DNA of 64,000 nt from contig CAZEKH010000004.1 of assembly GCA_964512925.1 (NCBI GenBank), positions 2,431 through 66,430 of the forward strand, given 5' to 3'. Below the pieces are notes generated by a model, which searched no databases, was not told where the DNA came from, and saw only the letters and a list, made by a program, of their open reading frames with translations. Positions 11,738-64,000 of this stretch are shown in pieces (the stretch's first letter is position 1; the number at the start of each line of letters is the position of its first letter). The DNA is from an uncultured Candidatus Saccharibacteria bacterium (GTDB lineage: Bacteria; Patescibacteriota; Doudnabacteria; UBA920). The position numbers and the translations under genes are program-made.

Positions 11738-11770
11738 CCTCCCCTTAAAGTAAGGGGAGGTTAGGAGGGG
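11738..11770. repeat. hairpin repeat family 1 copy, intergenic
   Basis: CCTCCCCttaaagtaaGGGGAGGTTAGGAGGGG. The loop ttaaagtaa is shared with the copy inside recG. Confidence 0.7.
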
Positions 11771-11845
11771 ATATGTTTCAGTAACTATGAATTTCGAATA
11801 TTTTTTAAATAAGTAATGTTATTTTTCAAATGAAAAAGCCGCGGT

Positions 11846-12253
11846 TTACTCGCGGCTGTGGGTAGGCCTTGGAACAGCGTCCAGGCCTTGTTCTAAGATG
11901 AAATTTTTTAGTCCCTCCGGGACGTTTCTGGTTCCTGGCAGCGCCAGAAACCAGAGATGCTGTGGGTACCACTGCGCGGTTACCCACTGCACTTCCGCCC
12001 AAGCCTGGGCAGAGAGGTTTGCGGAAGTTAGGTCTACGACCAGCACTTCCGACCCCTCCAAAGGCCAGCCCGTGCAAAGCGCTTGCCGCGCTTCGTCTCG
12101 GGTGGCAAGTTCCCCGGATATGACGATCCGGGTGAACTCTCCTTCTTTCCTCACAACTTTACGCGACCAAGTTCTGGTCAAGCGTATGTAAAGAGGGCGG
12201 AAAAAGAGAAAAATTACAAAAACTATAATATAATTCATCTTCCTCCACTTCAA
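11846..12253 (-). CDS. hypothetical protein with an N-terminal TM segment and a possible STAS-like fold, in a GC-enriched segment
   Basis: N-terminal hydrophobic NYIIVFVIFLFF, then RIVISGELATRDEARQAL...LVVDLTSANLS. Local GC is clearly above the window average. A minus-strand hairpin plus T-run lies at the 3' end (about 11836-11862). Confidence 0.3.
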   Translation of the reverse strand: MKWRKMNYIIVFVIFLFFRPLYIRLTRTWSRKVVRKEGEFTRIVISGELATRDEARQALCTGWPLEGSEVLVVDLTSANLSAQAWAEVQWVTAQWYPQHLWFLALPGTRNVPEGLKNFILEQGLDAVPRPTHSRE

Positions 12254-12370
12254 AAGACTGATTTATATTATACCACAAATACATATTTTTGTCCAGGAAA
12301 AAATGGCAGTTTTGCCATAGTTTTTTTCTAAACCACCTAAAAAATGATATAATTAAAACATACGCTTTTC

Positions 12371-12410
12371 CCCTTCTTTTTCCCTCCCTTGATGGGAGGG
12401 AGCCAAAGGC
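12371..12410. repeat. hairpin repeat family 1, degenerate copy
   Basis: CCCTCCCttgatGGGAGGGagccaaaggcg. Confidence 0.55.
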
Positions 12411-13332: not shown

Positions 13333-13697
13333 ATTGAAAAAACCCTAGAAAAATGCTAGGATATAGGCCTTGGGGATGACGGTTTTTGACAGGTCTTTGA
13401 CATCTTTTTATATGCAAGGCGAGCTAGTCTGTAGCCTCGTAAATCCTACGGACATCAACAAATGCTGTTGAAACCTCTTGGAACAAAGTTGTTAAAGCTT
13501 TTGCTTTAGCTGATTTTGCTCCTGTTGCTGCTTAATAAAGTAGCAACACATACCCTTTCCCCAATTCCGGGAAAGACCAGTATGCTTATTTGGAATTTGC
13601 GGTTTTAAGGTTTGATTTGCACTTTAAAACCAAAGGCATTGTAAATCAATTTCAATGAATTTTCGCCAGACTTTGTTCATTGAAATATCAAGTTTGG

Positions 13698-15305
13698 CTA
13701 ACCTTGTGAACAATGGAAAGATTGAGAAGTTCTGGACCCGGGTTTAACTCCCGGCATCTCCACCATATTAGTTTTTGAGGTGTTAACTTGTGTTAATGCC
13801 TCTAAGACAAGCGGTAATTTTGGTGTTCCAAAGCCTGTGAATTTGTCGTATGATAATCCTTTGTTAAAGTAAACGTTCAAAAGTGTTCTTTTCTCAATGA
13901 TTTCAGGGCTGTTCCAGTGATTTAGAGGGTGTTCCAAATAGCCAAAGACCAATTGTAGAGCTTTTAAAAAATCTTGTGTATTATACTGCTGAATTTTACC
14001 CGCCGATTCAATGGCGGTTTTTTGTTTGAGTAAATTTTCTAACTCAATTTCGTAATGGCGAATAAGCGTTTGATTAGAAGTTTCAGAAATTCTTTGGGTT
14101 AGATTGCTAATCTTGGTGTTAAATTCGTTTATTTGTTTCAAATTTGCCTCTTGATTGCTAATTTCGCCATTTTGCCTTTTTTGCCACACATCAAGGAGTA
14201 TAGCTTCGGCTAGCTTTAAAATTTGAGTTTTGGGGGTAAGTTTCGCAAGCAGTATTTCAAAGTCTTTATGGACTTCTGTTTGTCGTAAGGTTTTATTGCG
14301 GTTTGAGCAAAACGGATACTTACACCAGTAGTGGGGGTAAAGAGTGCCGAGTTTGCCTTTATGCCAACTTGCAGTCATTGCTCTATTGCAGTTTGGACAA
14401 AGTAAATAATTCCTTAAAGGAAAATCAGCACTAAGGTCTTGGCGCATTTGCGGTTTAAGTCTAGTTTGTAATCGGGTTTTAACTGCTTGTAAAGTTTCGA
14501 AAGAAATAAACCCTTTATGTTTAGCTTTTCTAAAATCAACATCCCAATTTTTATATTCCAAATAGCCGGCATAAAGCGGATTAATCAAAATAGTTTTGGT
14601 TGCGTCTGCGCTTAAACTTTTCTTTAAGCCCTTAAGTTTATATTGTTCAAGTATAAATTGTCTGACTGCTTCAATGGTGTTAAGTTCGTAATCTCTAAAT
14701 TTTTCTATGGCTTGTTTGTAAATTACAGAAAATACCCCGTCAGGAGCTAATATATTGCCCTCGTGATCTTTTCTTTGGAATTTTAAGCCAGGTGGAGCGT
14801 GAAATGCCCAGTAGCCAAGTTCTAGCCTAGCTTTTTGTTTTTGGATAACTTGCCTGCGATTTTGTTCTCGTTCTAACTGTGAGGTGGCGGCAATAATATT
14901 TTCTACAAAAATTCCTTCAGGGGTTTCTTCAAACTTAAAATTTAAACACTCCAACTTAGCCAATCTTGAACCAAATTCTTTTTTTAGCTTTAAATGAACT
15001 TCTATATCTCTTGCAAATCTTTTTATGTCGTCAAATATAACAACGAACTTTTCTGAACTATTTTTGTCTAAAAACTTTAATACTTCTTTCATTGCAGGGC
15101 GTTCAAATAATCCGCCTGAAACACCTTCGTCTCGGAATATTTTTATAACTTCTAAGCCTTTAGCTAGGGCGTAAGCAATACACCTGTGCTCTTGGCTTTC
15201 TAAACCGCTACCCTCGGAAACTTGCTGGCCAGAAGATACACGGCAATAAATTAAGGCTTTTTGGTATTCATTTAGGTTTGTGTTGTTTTTCATATGTGTT
15301 ATCAA
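13698..15305 (-). CDS. large serine recombinase (phage-integrase type). TTG start as called by the ORF track.
   Basis: Resolvase catalytic domain ALIYCRVSSGQQ...VVIFDDIKRFARD, a recombinase domain, the zinc ribbon CPNCNRAMTASWHKGKLGTLYPHYWCKYPFC, and a C-terminal coiled coil. The last ~20 codons read through the tRNA-like fragment. Confidence 0.85.
   Translation of the reverse strand: MITHMKNNTNLNEYQKALIYCRVSSGQQVSEGSGLESQEHRCIAYALAKGLEVIKIFRDEGVSGGLFERPAMKEVLKFLDKNSSEKFVVIFDDIKRFARDIEVHLKLKKEFGSRLAKLECLNFKFEETPEGIFVENIIAATSQLEREQNRRQVIQKQKARLELGYWAFHAPPGLKFQRKDHEGNILAPDGVFSVIYKQAIEKFRDYELNTIEAVRQFILEQYKLKGLKKSLSADATKTILINPLYAGYLEYKNWDVDFRKAKHKGFISFETLQAVKTRLQTRLKPQMRQDLSADFPLRNYLLCPNCNRAMTASWHKGKLGTLYPHYWCKYPFCSNRNKTLRQTEVHKDFEILLAKLTPKTQILKLAEAILLDVWQKRQNGEISNQEANLKQINEFNTKISNLTQRISETSNQTLIRHYEIELENLLKQKTAIESAGKIQQYNTQDFLKALQLVFGYLEHPLNHWNSPEIIEKRTLLNVYFNKGLSYDKFTGFGTPKLPLVLEALTQVNTSKTNMVEMPGVKPGSRTSQSFHCSQG
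13738..13765 (+). other. tRNA-like 3' fragment (T-arm, acceptor 3' strand, discriminator, CCA). No matching 5' half is present, so this is a candidate att-site remnant.
   Basis: CCGGG-TTTAACT-CCCGG (5-bp T-stem, 7-nt T-loop), then CATCTCC, A, CCA. No complementary GGAGATG acceptor 5' strand occurs within 100 nt upstream. It lies under the 3' end of the serine recombinase ORF. Confidence 0.4.
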
Positions 15306-17582: not shown

Positions 17583-17699
17583 AACTGGATTATAACAGCG
17601 AAATTTGCTATATTTTAAGTATAACTAAATAGCCTAAACCTGAGCAATCGGGCATGGCACAAAAAAATCTCAAGACGATACTGAACCCCGCGTTCAGCT

Positions 17700-17772
17700 A
17701 TTCGTCTTGAGTCATACCCGAAAGGGTATGGGGTGTAAAAGCCCGGCTGACACGGGGCTTTGTGTTTTTATA
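17700..17772. repeat. structured ~65-nt repeat, copy 1
   Basis: GAGTCATACCCGAAAGGGTATGGGGTGTAAAAGCCCGGCTGACACGGGGCTTTGTGTTT. It is preceded by a 10-bp inverted repeat CTCAAGACGA...TCGTCTTGAG. The related copy is at about 20331-20405. Confidence 0.6.
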
Positions 17773-27306: not shown

Positions 27307-27478
27307 TTAGAATTATTAGTAAATTAGAAATTAGAAATTAGAATAATTTCCTCTAAAACTTTGTCATTCCCGCGGATCCGCCAACTGGCGGAGGGAATCT
27401 AGTTAACAAAATTAAAGTTTAATTTAGAGGTAAATGAGGTAATTGCCTGCCCGAATGCCAAGCAAAGCCTTGCAGAAA

Positions 27479-27913
27479 TTAGAATAATTTTCTTATCTCC
27501 CTCTCCGTATCCCTCTTTTTTATATATTCCCGTTTGTCGGTTTTTTTTCGGCCTTTGCCAAGACCGACCCGCAGTTTAAGCCAGCCTTTGGGACTTGCAA
27601 AAATATCCAGCGCTATTAACACCAAACCTTTTTCTTTACCCATCAGTTTGTTTATCTCATCTTTGTTGAGTAAAAGTTTTCGGGTTTGGGTCGGGTTATA
27701 CTTATCGTTGGACGCGTATTTATAAGGACCGATATGGCAGCCGACCAGTTCAGCCCCGCGGCTCGTGGCTGTAACATAGGCCCCGGCCAGGGAGACATTG
27801 CCTTCTTTGACGGATTTTACTTCCGCTCCGGTCAATGCTAAACCCGCGACAAAAGTTTCCTTGATGTCGTAATCAAAACGCGCTCGTTTGTTTTCCGCCA
27901 GGGATTTGGACAT
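27479..27913 (-). CDS. smpB: SsrA-binding protein SmpB
   Basis: KSLAENKRARFDYDIKETFVAGLALTGAEVKSVKEGNVSLAGAYV is the SmpB consensus. Confidence 0.92.
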   Translation of the reverse strand: MSKSLAENKRARFDYDIKETFVAGLALTGAEVKSVKEGNVSLAGAYVTATSRGAELVGCHIGPYKYASNDKYNPTQTRKLLLNKDEINKLMGKEKGLVLIALDIFASPKGWLKLRVGLGKGRKKTDKREYIKKRDTEREIRKLF

Positions 27914-27934: not shown

Positions 27935-27984
27935 CCCCTCTCTCCAAAAGTTGGAGAGAGGTTGGGAGAGAGGTTTAAGTTAGG
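27935..27984. repeat. hairpin repeat family 1 copy; left inverted repeat flanking the DUF559 gene
   Basis: CCCCTCTCTCCaaaagttGGAGAGAGGTTGGGAGAGAGGTTTAAGTTAGG. Its reverse complement closely matches the element at about 28316-28359. Confidence 0.7.
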
Positions 27985-28316
27985 CTTTTAGCTATGGTTT
28001 CAAGCACTGTATCTAAATTTTTGTCTATATCATTATTCCAAAATCGTAATACTTTGTAACCTTCAGATTTTAAAAAAGCATTTCTTTGAGAGTCATAGAG
28101 TTTTGTGATAGCTTTTGAATGGTGCCCGCCATCTAACTCAATAATTAGCTTTTTTTCTTGACAACAAAAATCAACAATAAATTTACCTAAGGGAATTTGT
28201 CTTTTAAATTTGAAATTCCAAACCCTTTTACCTCTTAAATACTTCCAGAGTTTAGTTTCCCATGGGGTTTGTTGTTTTCTTAGCTCTTTACTTCTTGGGG
28301 TAAGAAATGCTTTCAC
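27975..28316 (-). CDS. DUF559 endonuclease-domain protein (Vsr/very-short-patch-repair-like fold), GTG start
   Basis: WETKLWKYLRGKRVWNFKFKRQIPLGKFIVDFCCQEKKLIIELDGGHHSKAITKLYDSQRNAFLKSEGYKVLRFWNNDI is the canonical DUF559 pattern (VDF....klvIElDG..H.....D..R...L...G..vlRf.n..v). Confidence 0.75.
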   Translation of the reverse strand: MKAFLTPRSKELRKQQTPWETKLWKYLRGKRVWNFKFKRQIPLGKFIVDFCCQEKKLIIELDGGHHSKAITKLYDSQRNAFLKSEGYKVLRFWNNDIDKNLDTVLETIAKSLT

Positions 28317-28359
28317 TTTAACCTCTCCCTAACCCTCTCCAAGAATTGGAGAGGGAATC
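28316..28359. repeat. hairpin repeat family 1 copy; right inverted repeat flanking the DUF559 gene
   Basis: TTAACCTCTCCCTAACCCTCTCCaagaattGGAGAGGGAATC. This is an inverted copy of the 27935-27984 element. Confidence 0.7.
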
Positions 28360-28431
28360 TATAATGTATATAGCTTACATTTTACCCTGTTTCACCTTTT
28401 TTGTCATTTTGTGTTATAATTTACTCACTTT

Positions 28432-30159
28432 ATGAACAGTGAAACACCGAAAAAACATATAAATTCTTTAGTCTCTCAGGCAATAAAAGAGGCTGGTTTT
28501 ACCTTGGAAAATATCCAAATAACCGAACCGGATCCCGAATTTGGGGACTACAGCACCAACGCGGCTTTAGTTTTGGCGAAAAAAGAGAAAAAAAACCCTC
28601 AGGAAGTCGCTGAAAAAATCATTGCTGAAATTTTGTCATTGGACAAAGAAAAAGTTTTGGAAAACGTTTTAGAGAAAGGCGGGTTTATAAACTTTAAGCT
28701 GTCAAAAAAGTTTTTACTTACAAATTTGCAAAGTATTTTAGAACAGGAAAATTTGTATGGTTCGTCGGCTGAGGGCGGAAAACAAAAGATTTTAGTGGAA
28801 TATTTTCAGCCCAATGTGGCCAAGCCTCTTCATTTAGGACATTTGCGGACAGCTATCATTGGCGACAGCTTGTTTAGAATATTTTTATCGCAAGGCTTTA
28901 AGGCTGAATCGGATACGCATTTGGGCGACTGGGGCACGCAGTTTGGGCTTTTGCTTTTGGCATACAAAAAGTATGGCGACATAGAAGTAATAAAAAAGGA
29001 CCCCATAACTGAGCTGAATAAACTTTATGTAAAAATAAATTTAGAGTTGGAACAAAGTCCGACTTTACGGGAAGAAGGCAAGGCCGAGTTTGTCAAGCTG
29101 GAAAAAGGGGATGAAGAAAACCGCAGACTTTGGAAACAGTTTAAAGACTGGTCTTGGAAAGAATATGAAATAATTTATTCCGATTTGGGCGTCCGAAAAA
29201 GCGATCATAACTGGCCGGAAAGTTTTTTTGAAGACAAAATGCCGGCAGTGGTAGAGGAGCTGAAAGCCAAAGGCTTGGCTAAAGAGTCCCAAGGCGCGCT
29301 GATTGTGGATTTGGAAGAATATAAATTAGGCGTGGCTGTGCTTGTGAAATCTGACGGCGGAACAACCTACCTCCTCAGGGACTTGGCAACTTTTATTTTC
29401 AGAAAGAGCCAGGGTTTTGTAAAGCAGTATTATGTGGTGGATGTCAGACAAAAACATACTTTAGAGCAGACTTTTAAAATTTTGGAGCTCGGCGGGTATT
29501 TGCTGTCGGGCGAGGCTGAACATATCTCTTATGGATTTTTAACCTTGCCGGAAGGAGCGATGAGCACCAGGAAAGGCACGGTTGTAGGAGCTAAAGAATT
29601 TATAGAAAATGTCCAATCCGAGGCGCTAAAAGTCATTGAAGAAAAAAACCCGGCTCTTTTGGAAAAGGAGCAGGCCGCAAAACAGGTTGCCGCGGCAGCT
29701 ATAAAATATTTTGACCTTTCACATAATATAAAGAGCGATATAGTTTTTGATCCGAAGAAAGCCCTGTCTTTTGAAGGCAATACCGGGCCTTACTTGCAAT
29801 ACACTCACGCGAGGATATATGGGATACTAAAAAAAATCAAAAATCAAAAATCAAAAATCAAAATTGATGACCAATACGAATTTTTAGAGTTCAAAGAACA
29901 AGAATTGGCGGTTTTAAGAAAGTTGGTGAAGTTTCCGGAGACCGTCTCGCAGGTAGCGGAAGATTGTTTGCCAAATTTATTGTGCAATTACTTGTTTGAA
30001 CTTTCCCAGGCTTTTAACGCTTTTTATCAGGATGTTCCAGTGCTTTCCGAGCCAGATGAAAATTTGAAAAATTTCCGCCTCGCTCTCATATCCTCGGTTG
30101 CCCAGGTGCTGAAAAATGGCCTGTATCTTCTAGGTATAGAAGCCCCTAAGGAAATGTAA
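28432..30159 (+). CDS. argS: arginine--tRNA ligase
   Basis: Class I motifs PLHLGHLRTAIIGD (HIGH) and GAMSTRKG (KMSKS), plus overall ArgRS architecture. It contains a (AAAATCA)n heptanucleotide repeat in-frame (KKIKNQKSKIKID). Confidence 0.9.
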   Translation: MNSETPKKHINSLVSQAIKEAGFTLENIQITEPDPEFGDYSTNAALVLAKKEKKNPQEVAEKIIAEILSLDKEKVLENVLEKGGFINFKLSKKFLLTNLQSILEQENLYGSSAEGGKQKILVEYFQPNVAKPLHLGHLRTAIIGDSLFRIFLSQGFKAESDTHLGDWGTQFGLLLLAYKKYGDIEVIKKDPITELNKLYVKINLELEQSPTLREEGKAEFVKLEKGDEENRRLWKQFKDWSWKEYEIIYSDLGVRKSDHNWPESFFEDKMPAVVEELKAKGLAKESQGALIVDLEEYKLGVAVLVKSDGGTTYLLRDLATFIFRKSQGFVKQYYVVDVRQKHTLEQTFKILELGGYLLSGEAEHISYGFLTLPEGAMSTRKGTVVGAKEFIENVQSEALKVIEEKNPALLEKEQAAKQVAAAAIKYFDLSHNIKSDIVFDPKKALSFEGNTGPYLQYTHARIYGILKKIKNQKSKIKIDDQYEFLEFKEQELAVLRKLVKFPETVSQVAEDCLPNLLCNYLFELSQAFNAFYQDVPVLSEPDENLKNFRLALISSVAQVLKNGLYLLGIEAPKEM

Positions 30160-59020: not shown

Positions 59021-59062
59021 CCCCCTCTCCCATATGGGAGAGGGCAGGGGTGAGGTTAGGGC
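59021..59062. repeat. hairpin repeat family 1 copy
   Basis: CCCTCTCCCatatGGGAGAGGGCAGGGGTGAGGTTAGGG. Confidence 0.75.
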
Positions 59063-62478: not shown

Positions 62479-64000
62479 TTACTCAAAATGCACCGCCTGG
62501 CCTTTTAGTTTTTGTTGGAGCAGGGGGTAGTTTTTTAGTTCCAGATCATCTTCCAAAAGTTTTCTGGCCTCTTGCCTAGCTTTGGGGATCAGGGCTATGT
62601 AGTCGGGGTTGAAGTATTTGTAATCAAAACCTGACTGAGTTTCGCCAAACAGCTTGCCAAAACCCCTTTGCTTTAAGTCTATTTCAGCCAGCTCAAAGCC
62701 GTTTCGGGTTTTGGTAAAGGAAGTGAGGCGGTCTAAGCTTTCGTTTTGAACAATAACTCTCCCAGGACCCCTCTTTGAAAAAGAGGGGGTTTCTGCAATT
62801 TCGCCCCCTCTTAAAGTAAGAGGGGGTTTGGGGGTGATACTGTTTTCTGTTGTAAACAAAAAGCAGTAGCTTTGGTGTTCGGCACGGCCGACGCGGCCGC
62901 GAAACTGGTGGAGCTGGGACAGACCGAAACGTTCTGCTCCTTCTATGACCATCACTGAAGCGTTTGGCACATCTACCCCAACTTCCACAACTGACGTTGA
63001 AACTAGGATTTGGATTTTGTTGTCTAAAAAATCCTGCATAACTTGTTCTTTTTCTTTGCTCTTCATTTTTCCGTGGAGGAGACCAATCAGAACTCCCCCC
63101 GCCTTCGCCAAGGCTTCGGCGGGCAAGGCCTGCCCACTCCCCTCAAGGGAGGGGAAAGAGGCGGTAAAGGGGGATGAAGGGGGTTTTTGAGAAAGCTCAG
63201 CAAATATTTTTTGCAGATTTAAAACTTCTGTTTTGGCGGACTTTATGTCAGACGTTTCGTTTTCCTCTATGAGCGGGGTTATGACAAAAGCCTGCCTGCC
63301 TTTTTGTATTTGTTCTTTAATAAACTCATAAGCCTTGTTTCTGTTTTCGTCTGTAACCAGTTTGGTTATGATAGGTTTTCTTTCAGCCGGCTTTTGTCTT
63401 ATCTGCGAAATATCTAACTCTCCAACAAAAGCCAGTTTAAGCGTGCGCGGGATCGGCGTTGCGCTCATAGAAAGTAAATGAGGCACTTTATGAGTCACTG
63501 AGTCGTTATCCGCGTGGCTCCGCTTCTTAGTCGGATCCGCATGAAATCCGCGCAGCAAAGTTCCTCTTTGCTCTACCCCGAAGCGGTGTTGTTCGTCGAT
63601 GATCACGAGGGCTAATTTTTTAAAATTGACCTTTTCTTCCAAAAGCGCGTGCGTGCCGATGTACAGCCCTGGCATACCATCCTGAAGTTCTTGTAGTAAT
63701 TCTTTTTTAGTTTTTTCTTTACGATTGATGAGTGAGTAGGTTTGAGTATAAAGTATGCTGCGGCAGTTGAAAAAAGGTTTTTTTTCCACCAAATATTTCA
63801 AAGCGCTTTCGTGATGCTGTTTGGCTAAAACTTCAGTTGGGCATAACAAAGCTACTTGTAAGCCTTTTTGTATCGCCTGAAGTGCGGCGATGAAAGAAAC
63901 CAAAGTTTTTCCCGACCCAACATCTCCTTCCAAAAGCCTGTTCATAGGAGATGATTTTTCCATATCCTGCAGTATGTCCCAGGCCGCTTTTTTTTGTTCT
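62479..64000 (-). CDS. recG: ATP-dependent DNA helicase RecG, 5'-partial (continues beyond the window end). It carries two in-frame hairpin-repeat insertions.
   Basis: Motif I MNRLLEGDVGSGKT, motif II LVIIDEQHRFG, and LHGKMKSKEK...ILVSTSVVEVGVDVP...FRGRVGR (helicase C-domain). The minus-strand frame stays open to nt 64000 (EQKKAAWDILQDMEKSSP...). The extra segments PPSSPFTASFPSLEGSGQALPAEALAKAGG and PPLTLRGGEIAETPSFSKRGPGRV coincide with repeat copies at about 63095-63188 and about 62767-62838. Confidence 0.88.
   Translation of the reverse strand, partial: EQKKAAWDILQDMEKSSPMNRLLEGDVGSGKTLVSFIAALQAIQKGLQVALLCPTEVLAKQHHESALKYLVEKKPFFNCRSILYTQTYSLINRKEKTKKELLQELQDGMPGLYIGTHALLEEKVNFKKLALVIIDEQHRFGVEQRGTLLRGFHADPTKKRSHADNDSVTHKVPHLLSMSATPIPRTLKLAFVGELDISQIRQKPAERKPIITKLVTDENRNKAYEFIKEQIQKGRQAFVITPLIEENETSDIKSAKTEVLNLQKIFAELSQKPPSSPFTASFPSLEGSGQALPAEALAKAGGVLIGLLHGKMKSKEKEQVMQDFLDNKIQILVSTSVVEVGVDVPNASVMVIEGAERFGLSQLHQFRGRVGRAEHQSYCFLFTTENSITPKPPLTLRGGEIAETPSFSKRGPGRVIVQNESLDRLTSFTKTRNGFELAEIDLKQRGFGKLFGETQSGFDYKYFNPDYIALIPKARQEARKLLEDDLELKNYPLLQQKLKGQAVHFE
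62767..62838. repeat. hairpin repeat family 1 double copy, inside the recG CDS and in-frame
   Basis: CCCCTCTTtgaaaaAGAGGGGG...CCCCCTCTTAAAGTAAGAGGGGGTTTGGGGGTGAT. The loop TTAAAGTAA is identical to the intergenic copy at 11738-11770. Confidence 0.7.
63095..63188. repeat. GC-rich hairpin repeat inside the recG CDS and in-frame
   Basis: CCGCCTTCGCCAAGGCTTCGGCGGGCAAGGCCTGCCCACTCCCCTCaagGGAGGGGAAAGAGGCGGTAAAGGGGGATGAAGGGGG. It shares the 12-mer CTTCGCCAAGGC with the 110-bp repeat at 19.6-20.0 kb. Confidence 0.6.

What the first reader, a model, noticed from the sequence alone, without database searches (positions are those of the whole stretch)
27935..28359. DUF559 endonuclease gene bracketed by inverted copies of the hairpin repeat, inserted between smpB and argS
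Layout:
- The 113-aa DUF559 (Vsr-like fold) gene spans 27975..28316.
- The left copy is CCCCTCTCTCCaaaagttGGAGAGAGGTTGGGAGAGAGGTTTAAGTTAGG.
- The right copy is its inverted counterpart ...CCTCTCCCTAACCCTCTCCaagaattGGAGAGGGAATC, which abuts the gene start.

This looks like a compact ~430-bp cassette, with inverted repeats plus a nuclease, dropped between two housekeeping genes. DUF559 genes are often described as selfish or mobile. Here the inverted terminal repeats are the same family that is scattered across the genome. This suggests either that the endonuclease mobilises the repeat family or that the repeat pair mobilised the gene.
Basis: partly seen in the sequence, partly recalled or inferred. 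Interest (0 to 1): 0.6.

Follow-up and report, generated by a model that had tools for sequence, protein, structure and literature searches.

The report
Nuclease gene framed by BoxC-type repeats
A small Vsr-like nuclease gene (DUF559, 50% identical to E. coli YcjD) sits exactly between two inverted copies of the BoxC/"intrastrand-triplex" repeat, the same frame surrounds its relatives in many bacterial phyla, and this may identify the enzyme partner of a repeat family for which no partner enzyme is on record.

Summary
A 113-aa DUF559 ORF (27975-28316, minus strand) lies between smpB and argS. Two inverted copies of a hairpin plus third arm abut its stop and start codons.

The frame is not a local accident. 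In 143 homologue loci from many phyla, the inverted-repeat score of the flanks has median 40. In 490 shifted controls the median is 17, and none reaches 40.

The repeat is a known family: BoxC, also called PIT or TMECO intrastrand-triplex motifs. The paper read on it reports finding no mobility gene near these repeats.

Supporting points:
- E. coli YcjD is 50% identical to the window protein, and its stop codon lies in such a hairpin.
- All five EDxHD/Vsr catalytic residues are invariant.
- The closest characterised structure is the homing endonuclease I-Bth0305I.
- Gene and arm type are shared across phyla.
- Gene-less miniature frames exist.
- At argS|smpB, one relative carries a different DUF559 frame and three carry none.

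No target-site duplication and no recent transposition were seen.

Best reading: a REPtron-like partnership between a nuclease and its repeats. Its mechanism is inferred, not shown. I found no report of this link in the literature searched.

The parts
27935..28359 (.). Whole unit: inverted triplex-motif (TM) repeat, DUF559 gene, inverted TM repeat.
   Evidence: inverted arms of 31 nt at 81% complementarity
27937..27961 (+). Left TM hairpin, downstream of the gene: CCTCTCTCC-AAAAGTT-GGAGAGAGG.
27964..27973 (+). Left third arm, GGGAGAGAGG. It contains the mirror/direct copy of the purine arm, points toward the gene, and ends 1 nt from the stop codon.
   Evidence: D11
27975..28316 (-). DUF559 / Vsr-like (EDxHD-type) nuclease ORF of 113 aa. 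E20, D49, D62, H66 and D75 are invariant among homologues.
28322..28329 (-). Right third arm. On the gene strand it reads GGGAGAGG, sits 5 nt before the GTG start and resembles a Shine-Dalgarno site.
   Evidence: the ribosome-binding role is an inference
28333..28355 (-). Right TM hairpin, upstream of the gene: CCCTCTCC-AAGAATT-GGAGAGGG. The second loop is TTA, i.e. 'type A'.
   Evidence: type A as defined in PMC4666352
27479..27913 (-). smpB, the flanking housekeeping gene, in the same orientation as DUF559.
28432..30159 (+). argS, the flanking housekeeping gene. Its promoter region at 28380-28431 is conserved in relatives up to about 25 nt from the frame.
59023..59055 (+). Solo family copy, CCCTCTCCC-ATAT-GGGAGAGGG-CAG-GGGTGAGG. 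It fits the published TMECO pattern at 26 of 27 stem positions.
11738..11771 (+). TM-like copy of a second sub-family (CCTCCCCTTA...). It is the left half of a second tails-inward frame.
12369..12401 (-). TM-like copy, the right half of the second frame. The cargo at 11772-12368 is not DUF559.
62757..62837 (.). Two TM-like copies with tails outward, lying in frame inside recG.

Best explanation
The unit is a nuclease-repeat partnership of the REPtron kind, built from different parts.

**The parts**
- The gene encodes a small Vsr/EDxHD-type PD-(D/E)XK nuclease of the DUF559 family, the family of E. coli YcjD.
- The two flanks are inverted copies of the BoxC/PIT/TMECO repeat. Each copy has a pyrimidine arm, a loop, a purine arm, a 2-3-nt spacer and a second purine arm.

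**Proposed mechanism**
1. The nuclease recognises this repeat, either as duplex DNA or as the folded hairpin/triplex that forms when the DNA is single-stranded, and nicks or cuts at or beside it.
2. The break is repaired from another copy of the repeat. This homogenises, adds or deletes copies.
3. When the target is an inverted, gene-less repeat pair and the template is the gene-bearing pair, the nuclease gene is copied in, as in homing.
4. The gene has no room for its own promoter. It would be read from host transcripts, with the inner purine arm acting as a ribosome-binding site.

**Shown**
- The anatomy of the unit and its conservation across phyla.
- An intact catalytic motif.
- Gene and arm type shared across phyla.
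- Gene-less miniature frames.
- Presence/absence polymorphism of frames.
- Long vertical residence at one locus.

**Inferred**
- That the nuclease acts on the repeat.
- The cleavage chemistry.
- The repair-mediated copying.
For: **The frame is general**
- Flank inverted-repeat scores in 143 homologue loci have median 40, against 17 in 490 shifted controls. 51% of loci reach 40 and none of the controls does (Mann-Whitney p=7e-52).
- At least 54 loci have both third arms pointing inward and abutting the start and stop codons.
- Mis-called N- and C-terminal extensions of database homologues translate the same repeats.

**The enzyme looks active and is related to a homing endonuclease**
- Residues E20, D49, D62, H66 and D75 are invariant. 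They align with the EDxHD/Vsr catalytic residues.
- The AlphaFold model has pLDDT 87.5.
- The best PDB matches are 3HRL and then the catalytic domain of the homing endonuclease I-Bth0305I, at E=7.6e-5.

**The repeat is a family with no reported partner enzyme**
- It matches BoxC/PIT/TMECO. PMC4666352 states that no mobility gene was ever found near these repeats, and it never mentions ycjD or DUF559.

**E. coli**
- YcjD is 50% identical to the window protein. Its stop codon lies in such a hairpin, and a canonical TMECO copy lies beside it.
- ycjD-positive genomes show a median of 20 BLAST places for ycjD plus BoxC. ycjD-negative genomes show 10.5, and B2 strains show 1-2.

**Gene and repeat are shared across distant taxa**
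- Proteins 74-77% identical occur in an Arenicellales genome, a Nitrospira genome and a Binatia genome. All carry the same unusual arm (GGGGGAGT) and share no synteny.
- Proteins flanked by the same arm type are more alike. None of 300 permutations reached the observed difference.

**Gene-less frames exist**
- L066, L151 and L158 hold miniature frames.
- The K-12 hrpB-mrcB pair has tails inward and a 16-nt spacer. It is a presence/absence polymorphism of about 102 bp among E. coli.

**The argS|smpB site**
- L082 has a different DUF559 in its own frame at the same point. L083-L085 have none.
Against: - No biochemical or genetic result links any DUF559 protein to these repeats.
- No target-site duplication was found. 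There are no multiple contexts for identical proteins.
- Close relatives are syntenic, so current activity, if any, is rare.
- About 40% of homologue loci have weak or no inverted flanks.
- Some lineages have the third arms pointing outward: L022, L031, Synechocystis L186 and Deinococcus L187. The N. gonorrhoeae locus has only one element.
- E. coli O157-type genomes lack ycjD yet keep about 12 BoxC copies, and the ycjD/BoxC correlation is confounded by phylogroup.
- A second tails-inward frame in the window holds a cargo that is not DUF559.
- The 113-aa protein has no separate DNA-binding domain, unlike I-Bth0305I.
Confidence: 0.55

Rival explanations
1. Autonomous transposon with miniature derivatives. 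DUF559 would be the transposase, the two TM copies its terminal inverted repeats, and the solo or paired TMs its non-autonomous (MITE-like) derivatives.
For: - Terminal inverted repeats of 30-45 nt abut the ORF.
- Gene-less miniature frames exist.
- A frame of about 102 bp is an insertion/deletion polymorphism in E. coli.
- Related proteins occur at non-syntenic loci in Betaproteobacteria.
Against: - No target-site duplication was found.
- No identical copies occur at different sites.
- A lone 113-aa Vsr-like nuclease is not known, to my knowledge, to carry out strand transfer. TnsA, the PD-(D/E)XK protein of Tn7, needs TnsB for that step.
- Third-arm orientation differs between lineages.
Confidence: 0.15
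2. Passive capture. TM repeats are fragile or recombination-prone sites, and small genes accumulate between them. DUF559 would be a frequent passenger with an unrelated job, such as Vsr-like mismatch repair or defence.
For: - TM loci are more rearranged than control sites in E. coli (PMC4666352).
- The sapF-fabI gap holds either ycjD or an 8-kb efflux island.
- A second frame in the window carries a different cargo.
- The Caulobacter DUF559 protein VsrA is linked to a cytosine methyltransferase.
Against: - None of 490 control positions in the same loci shows such flanks.
- The arms abut the start and stop codons in dozens of phylogenetically distant loci.
- Arm type tracks the protein across phyla.
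- No methyltransferase gene adjoins the window gene.
Confidence: 0.15
3. Expression device. The hairpins would belong to the gene's transcript, acting as a ribosome-binding site, as protection against exonucleases, or as a long-range stem between the inner arms. Solo copies elsewhere would be relics of decayed genes.
For: - The inner purine arm sits 5 nt before the GTG start.
- The two inner arms are complementary to each other.
- A decayed second copy of the ycjD 3' end lies next to a BoxC copy in K-12.
Against: - PIT/BoxC elements showed no promoter or terminator activity and no effect on RNA polymerase, according to earlier work summarised in PMC4666352.
- Solo copies far outnumber genes: 23 BoxC against 1 ycjD in K-12.
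- TM-like inserts lie in frame inside recG and differ between relatives.
Confidence: 0.1
4. Chance juxtaposition of two members of an abundant repeat family around an unrelated gene.
For: The window holds about 10 family copies in 64 kb.
Against: The same frame recurs in more than 80 independent homologue loci and in none of 490 controls.
Confidence: 0.02

Closest known systems
REPtron: a RAYT gene flanked by inverted REP/REPIN sequences
   Same: - A small nuclease-type gene is framed by inverted copies of a hairpin repeat that is dispersed through the genome.
- There are few gene copies and many repeats.
- Residence is mostly vertical and long-term.
- Gene-less inverted pairs, like REPINs, exist.
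   Different: - The enzyme is a Vsr/EDxHD PD-(D/E)XK nuclease, not a Y1 HUH transposase.
- The repeat carries a third arm and has triplex potential, rather than a GTAG/CGTC head.
- Repeat sequence is conserved across phyla and shared with the gene. REPs are described as lineage-specific.
BoxC / PIT elements / TMECO intrastrand-triplex motifs (PMC4666352)
   Same: - The architecture is the same: pyrimidine arm, loop, purine arm, 2-3-nt spacer, purine arm.
- The window copy at 59023 fits the pattern at 26 of 27 stem positions.
- The right flank has the 'type A' TTA second loop.
- Inverted pairs occur in K-12.
   Different: - The flanking copies here have 8-9-nt arms and 7-nt loops, so they miss the strict published pattern.
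- The host is a 40% G+C Patescibacteria-type genome, whereas the 262 genomes reported were proteobacterial.
- Copies here also lie in frame inside a gene. In E. coli they are reported as always intergenic.
EDxHD homing endonucleases (I-Bth0305I, PDB 3R3P)
   Same: - The catalytic fold matches (Foldseek E=7.6e-5, TM 0.64-0.74).
- The same five catalytic positions are present.
- Members of that family also occur as free-standing genes.
   Different: - There are no NUMOD/helix-turn-helix DNA-binding repeats, and the protein is only 113 aa.
- It is not in an intron, an intein or a split gene.
- The target is unknown.
E. coli YcjD (b1289) and N. gonorrhoeae NGO0050 (PDB 3HRL)
   Same: - YcjD is 50% identical to the window protein.
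- The profile of the window protein and its homologues matches 3HRL at E=5.9e-31.
- Both loci carry TM elements beside the gene.
   Different: - Both proteins are uncharacterised.
- Their frames are partly decayed: YcjD lacks the upstream element, and NGO0050 lacks the downstream one.
Vsr very-short-patch repair endonuclease
   Same: It has the same superfamily fold and catalytic residues.
   Different: - The structural match is weak (E=0.05).
- No adjacent cytosine methyltransferase gene is present.
- Framing by repeats is not a Vsr feature.

Membership tests
DUF559 (PF04480), Vsr-like PD-(D/E)XK nucleases | Profile match above Pfam's gathering score | tested here: met
   135.3 bits against a cut-off of 20.6, E=9.4e-40, covering residues 7-112.
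DUF559 (PF04480), Vsr-like PD-(D/E)XK nucleases | Vsr-like fold with the catalytic residues (Vsr E25, D51, H64, H69, D97) | tested here: met
   The model has pLDDT 87.5. It matches 3HRL at TM 0.73/0.87 and 3R3P at TM 0.64/0.73. E20, D49, D62, H66 and D75 are invariant in 26 sequences, and they align to the I-Bth0305I catalytic positions.
YcjD equivalog (NCBIfam NF007294) | Score above the curated equivalog cut-off | tested here: not met
   114.6 bits against a cut-off of 218. The protein is a relative at 50% identity, not an equivalog.
BoxC/PIT/TMECO repeat | Published pattern CCCTCNCCC N3-6 GGGNGAGGG N3 GGGNGAGGG | tested here: inconclusive
   The solo copy at 59023-59055 fits at 26 of 27 stem positions. 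The two flanking copies keep the pyrimidine-purine-purine order and the 2-3-nt second loop, but they have 8-9-nt arms and a 7-nt first loop.
BoxC/PIT/TMECO repeat | Forms an intrastrand triplex as single-stranded DNA | not testable with these tools
   What the sequence shows is mirror symmetry. In the right copy the third arm GGGAGAGG is the reverse of the purine arm GGAGAGGG.
REPtron (RAYT with REP/REPIN) | The gene encodes a Y1 HUH (IS200-like) transposase | tested here: not met
   Pfam finds only DUF559 and MTES_1575.
REPtron (RAYT with REP/REPIN) | The gene is flanked by inverted copies of the genome's dispersed hairpin repeat | tested here: met
REPtron (RAYT with REP/REPIN) | One gene copy with many repeats, inherited vertically | tested here: inconclusive
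   The 64-kb window has one DUF559 gene and about 10 repeats. K-12 has 1 ycjD and 23 TMECO copies. Close pairs are syntenic. However, two DUF559 proteins (P0009, P0080) list the same 949-kb longest-contig length, and sharing across phyla is seen.
EDxHD homing endonucleases | N-terminal NUMOD/helix-turn-helix DNA-binding region | tested here: not met
   The protein is 113 aa, with only two short N-terminal helices before the catalytic core.
EDxHD homing endonucleases | Cleaves the gene-less allele of its own insertion site | not testable with these tools
   Candidate empty sites (gene-less inverted TM pairs) exist.
Classical insertion sequence with terminal inverted repeats, plus MITEs | Target-site duplication outside the terminal repeats | tested here: not met
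   In 81 frames, the length distribution of flanking direct repeats equals the shuffled-pair control.
Vsr repair system | Adjacent or overlapping C5-cytosine methyltransferase gene | tested here: not met
   The neighbours are smpB, argS and a PLD-like gene. The rest of the window was not screened for methyltransferases.

The most novel reading that the evidence does not exclude
The DUF559/YcjD family would be the cognate enzyme of the BoxC/PIT/TMECO 'intrastrand-triplex' repeats, for which the work read here reports no associated enzyme. The two together would form a second class of REPtron-like selfish partnership, independent of RAYT. It would span bacterial phyla from E. coli to Patescibacteria. 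The nuclease would read a folded hairpin or triplex DNA structure and spread by repair-mediated copying into gene-less repeat pairs.
Probability: 0.4. Interest if true: 0.85.

Novelty: new variant of a known kind. Interest (0 to 1): 0.72.

Why it matters
- **An unexplained repeat family.** By the account in PMC4666352, BoxC/PIT/TMECO repeats were found in E. coli in the 1990s and re-described in 2000. They occur thousands of times in hundreds of genomes and mark unstable loci. That paper found no function and no mobility gene for them.
- **An unassigned protein family.** DUF559 has no assigned function in the sources read here. It has more than 2,000 close relatives in this search alone.
- **A direct test.** If the two belong together, each explains the other. 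The idea can be tested in E. coli K-12 with ycjD, the 23 mapped BoxC copies and a natural gene-less repeat pair at hrpB-mrcB.
- **Wider consequences.** It would add a second enzyme class to the REPIN/RAYT paradigm of persistent intragenomic replicators. It might also provide a small nuclease that is specific for a DNA structure.

Tried and rejected
- **Target-site duplications.** None exceeded chance in 81 frames.
- **Recent transposition.** Proteins P0114 and P0039, seen on 24 contigs each, always lie in one context.
- **Clean empty site at argS|smpB.** The relatives are too distant (SmpB 72-76% identity). Only presence, absence and a different occupant could be shown.
- **Different left and right ends.** Second-loop types show no consistent upstream/downstream asymmetry.
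- **Automatic orientation calls.** The first classifier was confused by neighbouring repeats. I replaced it with alignment-based calls.
- **RNA families.** Rfam found nothing in or beside the unit. It found only the tmRNA and LOOT RNA elsewhere in the window.
- **Defence systems.** PADLOC gave only weak domain-level hits to DpdF, HEase and mREase. I rejected a defence-system reading.
- **Carriage by plasmids or phages.** It is rare: 38 of 72,556 plasmid records, mostly chromids or mislabelled chromosomes, and 2 of 50,697 phage records.
- **Literature.** Searches for DUF559, ycjD, Vsr with REPIN/RAYT, Vsr-like homing endonucleases, BoxC and intrastrand triplex found no paper linking the nuclease to the repeat. 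The library holds only open-access papers and bioRxiv preprints, so an earlier report cannot be excluded.
Full report
**1. What is in the window**

The window has 40% G+C. Its closest protein matches that carry a name are from Candidatus Doudnabacteria, a Patescibacteria group.

The ORF 27975-28316 (minus strand, GTG start, 113 aa) matches Pfam DUF559 at E=9.4e-40. It lies between smpB (27479-27913, minus) and argS (28432-30159, plus).

Each flank is a hairpin plus a third arm.
- On the + strand the left flank reads CCTCTCTCC-AAAAGTT-GGAGAGAGG-TT-GGGAGAGAGG (27937-27973). It ends 1 nt from the stop codon.
- The right flank reads CCTCTCCC-TAA-CCCTCTCC-AAGAATT-GGAGAGGG (28322-28355). Its third arm lies 5 nt from the GTG start.

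The hairpins are self-complementary, so the third arm defines the orientation. It points toward the gene on both sides, so the copies are inverted: 31 nt at 81% complementarity.

On the gene strand the upstream inner arm reads GGGAGAGG-TTAAA-GTG, which is a plausible ribosome-binding site (inference). There is no room for a promoter inside the unit.

The motif is enriched. GGAGAGRGG occurs 6 times against 0.47 expected. The window holds 14 pyrimidine/purine hairpins against 0-2 in shuffles. It holds one DUF559 gene only.

**2. The frame is a property of the gene family**

Database homologues with over-long gene calls have N-terminal extensions such as '...WGEV' and C-terminal extensions such as 'LSPxLSPSPGERG'. 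These are translations of the same repeat.

I collected two sets of loci:
- 80 loci from one genome per species. They include genomes labelled Bacteroidota, Melainabacteria, Legionella, Gallionella, Saccharibacteria, Sphingomonadales, delta-proteobacteria, Chloroflexota and Rickettsiales, at 44-55% identity.
- 80 loci from metagenomes.

Results for the 143 assessable loci:
- The local alignment score between the upstream flank and the reverse complement of the downstream flank has median 40. In 490 positions shifted by 0.8-1.1 kb within the same loci the median is 17.
- 51% of loci reach a score of 40 and none of the controls does (Mann-Whitney p=7e-52).
- At least 54 loci have both third arms inward, and two clearly have them outward.
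- Where loops can be compared they are inverted in 33 of 46 cases, 21 of them exactly.
- Variants carry a small G+C-rich hairpin between the second and third arm.

Two more distant relatives, on a Synechocystis plasmid and a Deinococcus plasmid, have the arms outward. The N. gonorrhoeae locus has only the upstream element.

**3. The repeat is a known family without a known enzyme**

The architecture is that of BoxC, first found in E. coli in the 1990s. The same elements were later called PIT elements and then TMECO intrastrand-triplex motifs. The published pattern is CCCTCNCCC N3-6 GGGNGAGGG N3 GGGNGAGGG.

PMC4666352 reports the following:
- 3,610 copies in 262 proteobacterial genomes.
- 23 copies in K-12, 29 in strain 55989 and 1 in IHE3034.
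- No copies in Salmonella.
- Stable triplex formation in vitro by the single strand.
- No promoter or terminator activity, from earlier work it summarises.
- Raised local genome variability at these loci.

That paper contains no mention of ycjD, DUF559 or an endonuclease. The window's solo copy at 59023-59055 fits the pattern at 26 of 27 stem positions. The right flank of the gene has the 'type A' TTA second loop.

**4. E. coli shows the same association**

- YcjD (b1289) is 50% identical to the window protein.
- Its stop codon lies inside a CCCTCTCCC...GCGAGGGGG hairpin.
- A decayed duplicate of its 3' end follows. A canonical copy, CCCCTCGCCCCTCTGGGGAGAGGGTTAGGGTGAGGGG, lies between it and fabI.
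- From memory, and not checked here, the envM/fabI region is where BoxC was first described.
- ycjD is present in 3,378 of 5,426 complete genomes. The others carry an 8-kb efflux island, the eef operon, at the same place.
- I searched with a composite query of ycjD plus BoxC and sampled genomes evenly down the ranking. The 37 ycjD-positive genomes have 13-29 places, median 20. The 22 ycjD-negative chromosomes have 1-17, median 10.5. Strain 536, which I take from memory to be phylogroup B2, has 2.
- This agrees with a functional link, but it is confounded by phylogroup. O157-type genomes keep about 12 copies without ycjD.
- The K-12 inverted pair between hrpB and mrcB has tails inward and a 16-nt spacer, so it is a gene-less version of the frame. 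It is absent from strain SaT040 and collapsed to a single hairpin in an O111 strain.

**5. The enzyme**

- E20, D49, D62, H66 and D75 are invariant in 26 homologues. They align with the EDxHD/Vsr catalytic positions.
- The AlphaFold model (pLDDT 87.5) matches 3HRL best. 3HRL is N. gonorrhoeae NGO0050, which is uncharacterised.
- The next match is the catalytic domain of the homing endonuclease I-Bth0305I (E=7.6e-5).
- Vsr itself is a weak match (E=0.05).
- The protein lacks the NUMOD DNA-binding region of I-Bth0305I.
- A Caulobacter DUF559 protein causes an SOS response when its partner methyltransferase is missing. This shows in-vivo DNA-damaging activity for one member of the family.

**6. 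Signs of mobility and signs of stability**

At argS|smpB the flanking synteny is conserved in four relatives.
- L082 (SmpB 76% identical) has a DUF559 only 42% identical to the window's. The window protein's best matches elsewhere are 63-66% identical.
- That gene sits in a frame of a different arm sub-family. The frame starts within a few bases of the same point after the conserved argS promoter.
- L083 and L085 have other sequence in the gap. L084 has a PaaX_M-domain gene framed by unrelated hairpins.

Signs of movement over long timescales:
- Proteins 74-77% identical occur in an Arenicellales genome, a Nitrospira genome and a Binatia genome. All carry the same unusual arm and share no synteny.
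- Betaproteobacterial proteins 75-83% identical lie at non-syntenic loci.

Signs of stability:
- Most close pairs are syntenic, with flank identity similar to gene identity.
- Identical proteins always lie in one context.
- No target-site duplication is detectable.
- The gene is rare on plasmids and phages.

Other points:
- Gene-less miniature frames occur, and the spacing of inward-facing pairs is bimodal: under 60 nt or 250-600 nt.
- TM-like elements also lie in frame in recG, and the insert differs or is absent in relatives. The repeats have therefore been gained or lost within this lineage.

**7. Interpretation**

The anatomy and its distribution fit best a REPtron-like partnership. A nuclease gene is nested between inverted copies of the repeat on which it presumably acts. 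It persists mainly vertically, is occasionally replaced or transferred together with its repeat type, and is accompanied by many gene-less singles and pairs.

The most economical mechanism is this. The nuclease cuts at the repeat, and the break is repaired from another copy. That would explain three observations:
- the sequence uniformity of the copies;
- the absence of target-site duplications;
- the gene-less pairs, which would serve as homing sites.

I commit to this reading at about 0.55 for the partnership itself and about 0.3 for the repair-copying details. The rivals are a true transposase with miniature derivatives, passive capture at fragile sites, and an expression device for the gene. 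They are set out with their tests in the rival explanations.

**8. Novelty**

The repeat family, the protein family and the REPtron concept are each known. I did not find the link between DUF559 and BoxC/PIT/TMECO in the searchable literature. An earlier report in a journal outside the library cannot be excluded.

Noticed in passing
window 11772-12368 (framed by 11738-11771 and 12369-12401): A second tails-inward frame, made of TM-like repeats of another sub-family, encloses a segment of about 600 nt. The core of the segment is 55-62% G+C in a 40% G+C genome. The segment folds far better than shuffled sequence (z = -9.9 on the plus strand, -9.2 on the minus strand). It has no Rfam match and no Pfam match in any ORF. 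It could be an undescribed structured RNA or a foreign gene remnant.
   Followed up: partly
window 62479-63963 (minus), recG; full protein P0241: RecG is 784 aa here, against 680-700 aa in most relatives listed, and carries three in-frame inserts. Two are TM-like repeats (about 63087-63177 and 62757-62837). At the position of the last one, relatives carry different TM-like inserts or none. The third insert, 'FHADPTKKRSHADNDSVTH', lies exactly where two relatives (P0359, P0290) carry a whole GxxExxY (PF13366) nuclease domain in frame.
   Followed up: partly
L084:2430-3510, the argS|smpB gap of a relative: The same intergenic gap holds a PaaX_M-domain gene in this relative. It is framed by a different pair of hairpins of about 38 nt (GAAGTGGGTAAATTTCACGGCCGTGAAATTTATCCACTT and AAGTGGATGATTTTCTCGGCCGAGAATTTTCTCCACTT). 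The gap looks like a general landing site for small framed genes.
   Followed up: no
L096:560-1010: A 23S_rRNA_IVP (four-helix-bundle, PF05635) gene lies between rpiB and rpe. It is framed by its own inverted repeat (GGAATTAGCTTGTAGG / CCTACAACCTAATTCC). This is another small gene with the same framed layout but unrelated repeats.
   Followed up: no
window 27307-27478, between the PLD-like gene and smpB: Other repeats lie here. AGAAATTAGAATAATTT occurs twice (27333 and 27474). There is also a hairpin, GTCATTCCCGCGGATCCGCC-AACT-GGCGGAGGGAATC, at about 27362-27398. Its GCGGATCCG core recurs in the recG insert at 63520-63545.
   Followed up: no
window 13372-13765 (+) and 17631-17744 (+): A tmRNA gene (124.7 bits, tag peptide AVETSWNKVVKAFALADFAPVAA) and a LOOT RNA (63.1 bits against a gathering score of 46.4).
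   Followed up: no
L178:11040-11830 (E. coli K-12, fabI-ycjD-sapF) and L181: Downstream of ycjD lies a decayed duplicate of its own last 70 nt or so, next to a BoxC copy. In 38% of complete E. coli genomes the ycjD/BoxC segment is replaced by the 8-kb eef efflux island. One breakpoint lies about 30 nt before the BoxC copy on the fabI side.
   Followed up: partly
L002 compared with L127; L065 compared with L126: In these pairs the DUF559 genes are 79-83% identical at the nucleotide level. One flank is much more similar than the gene (92%) or less similar (69%), and the other flank is unrelated. This suggests recombination breakpoints at the frame.
   Followed up: no
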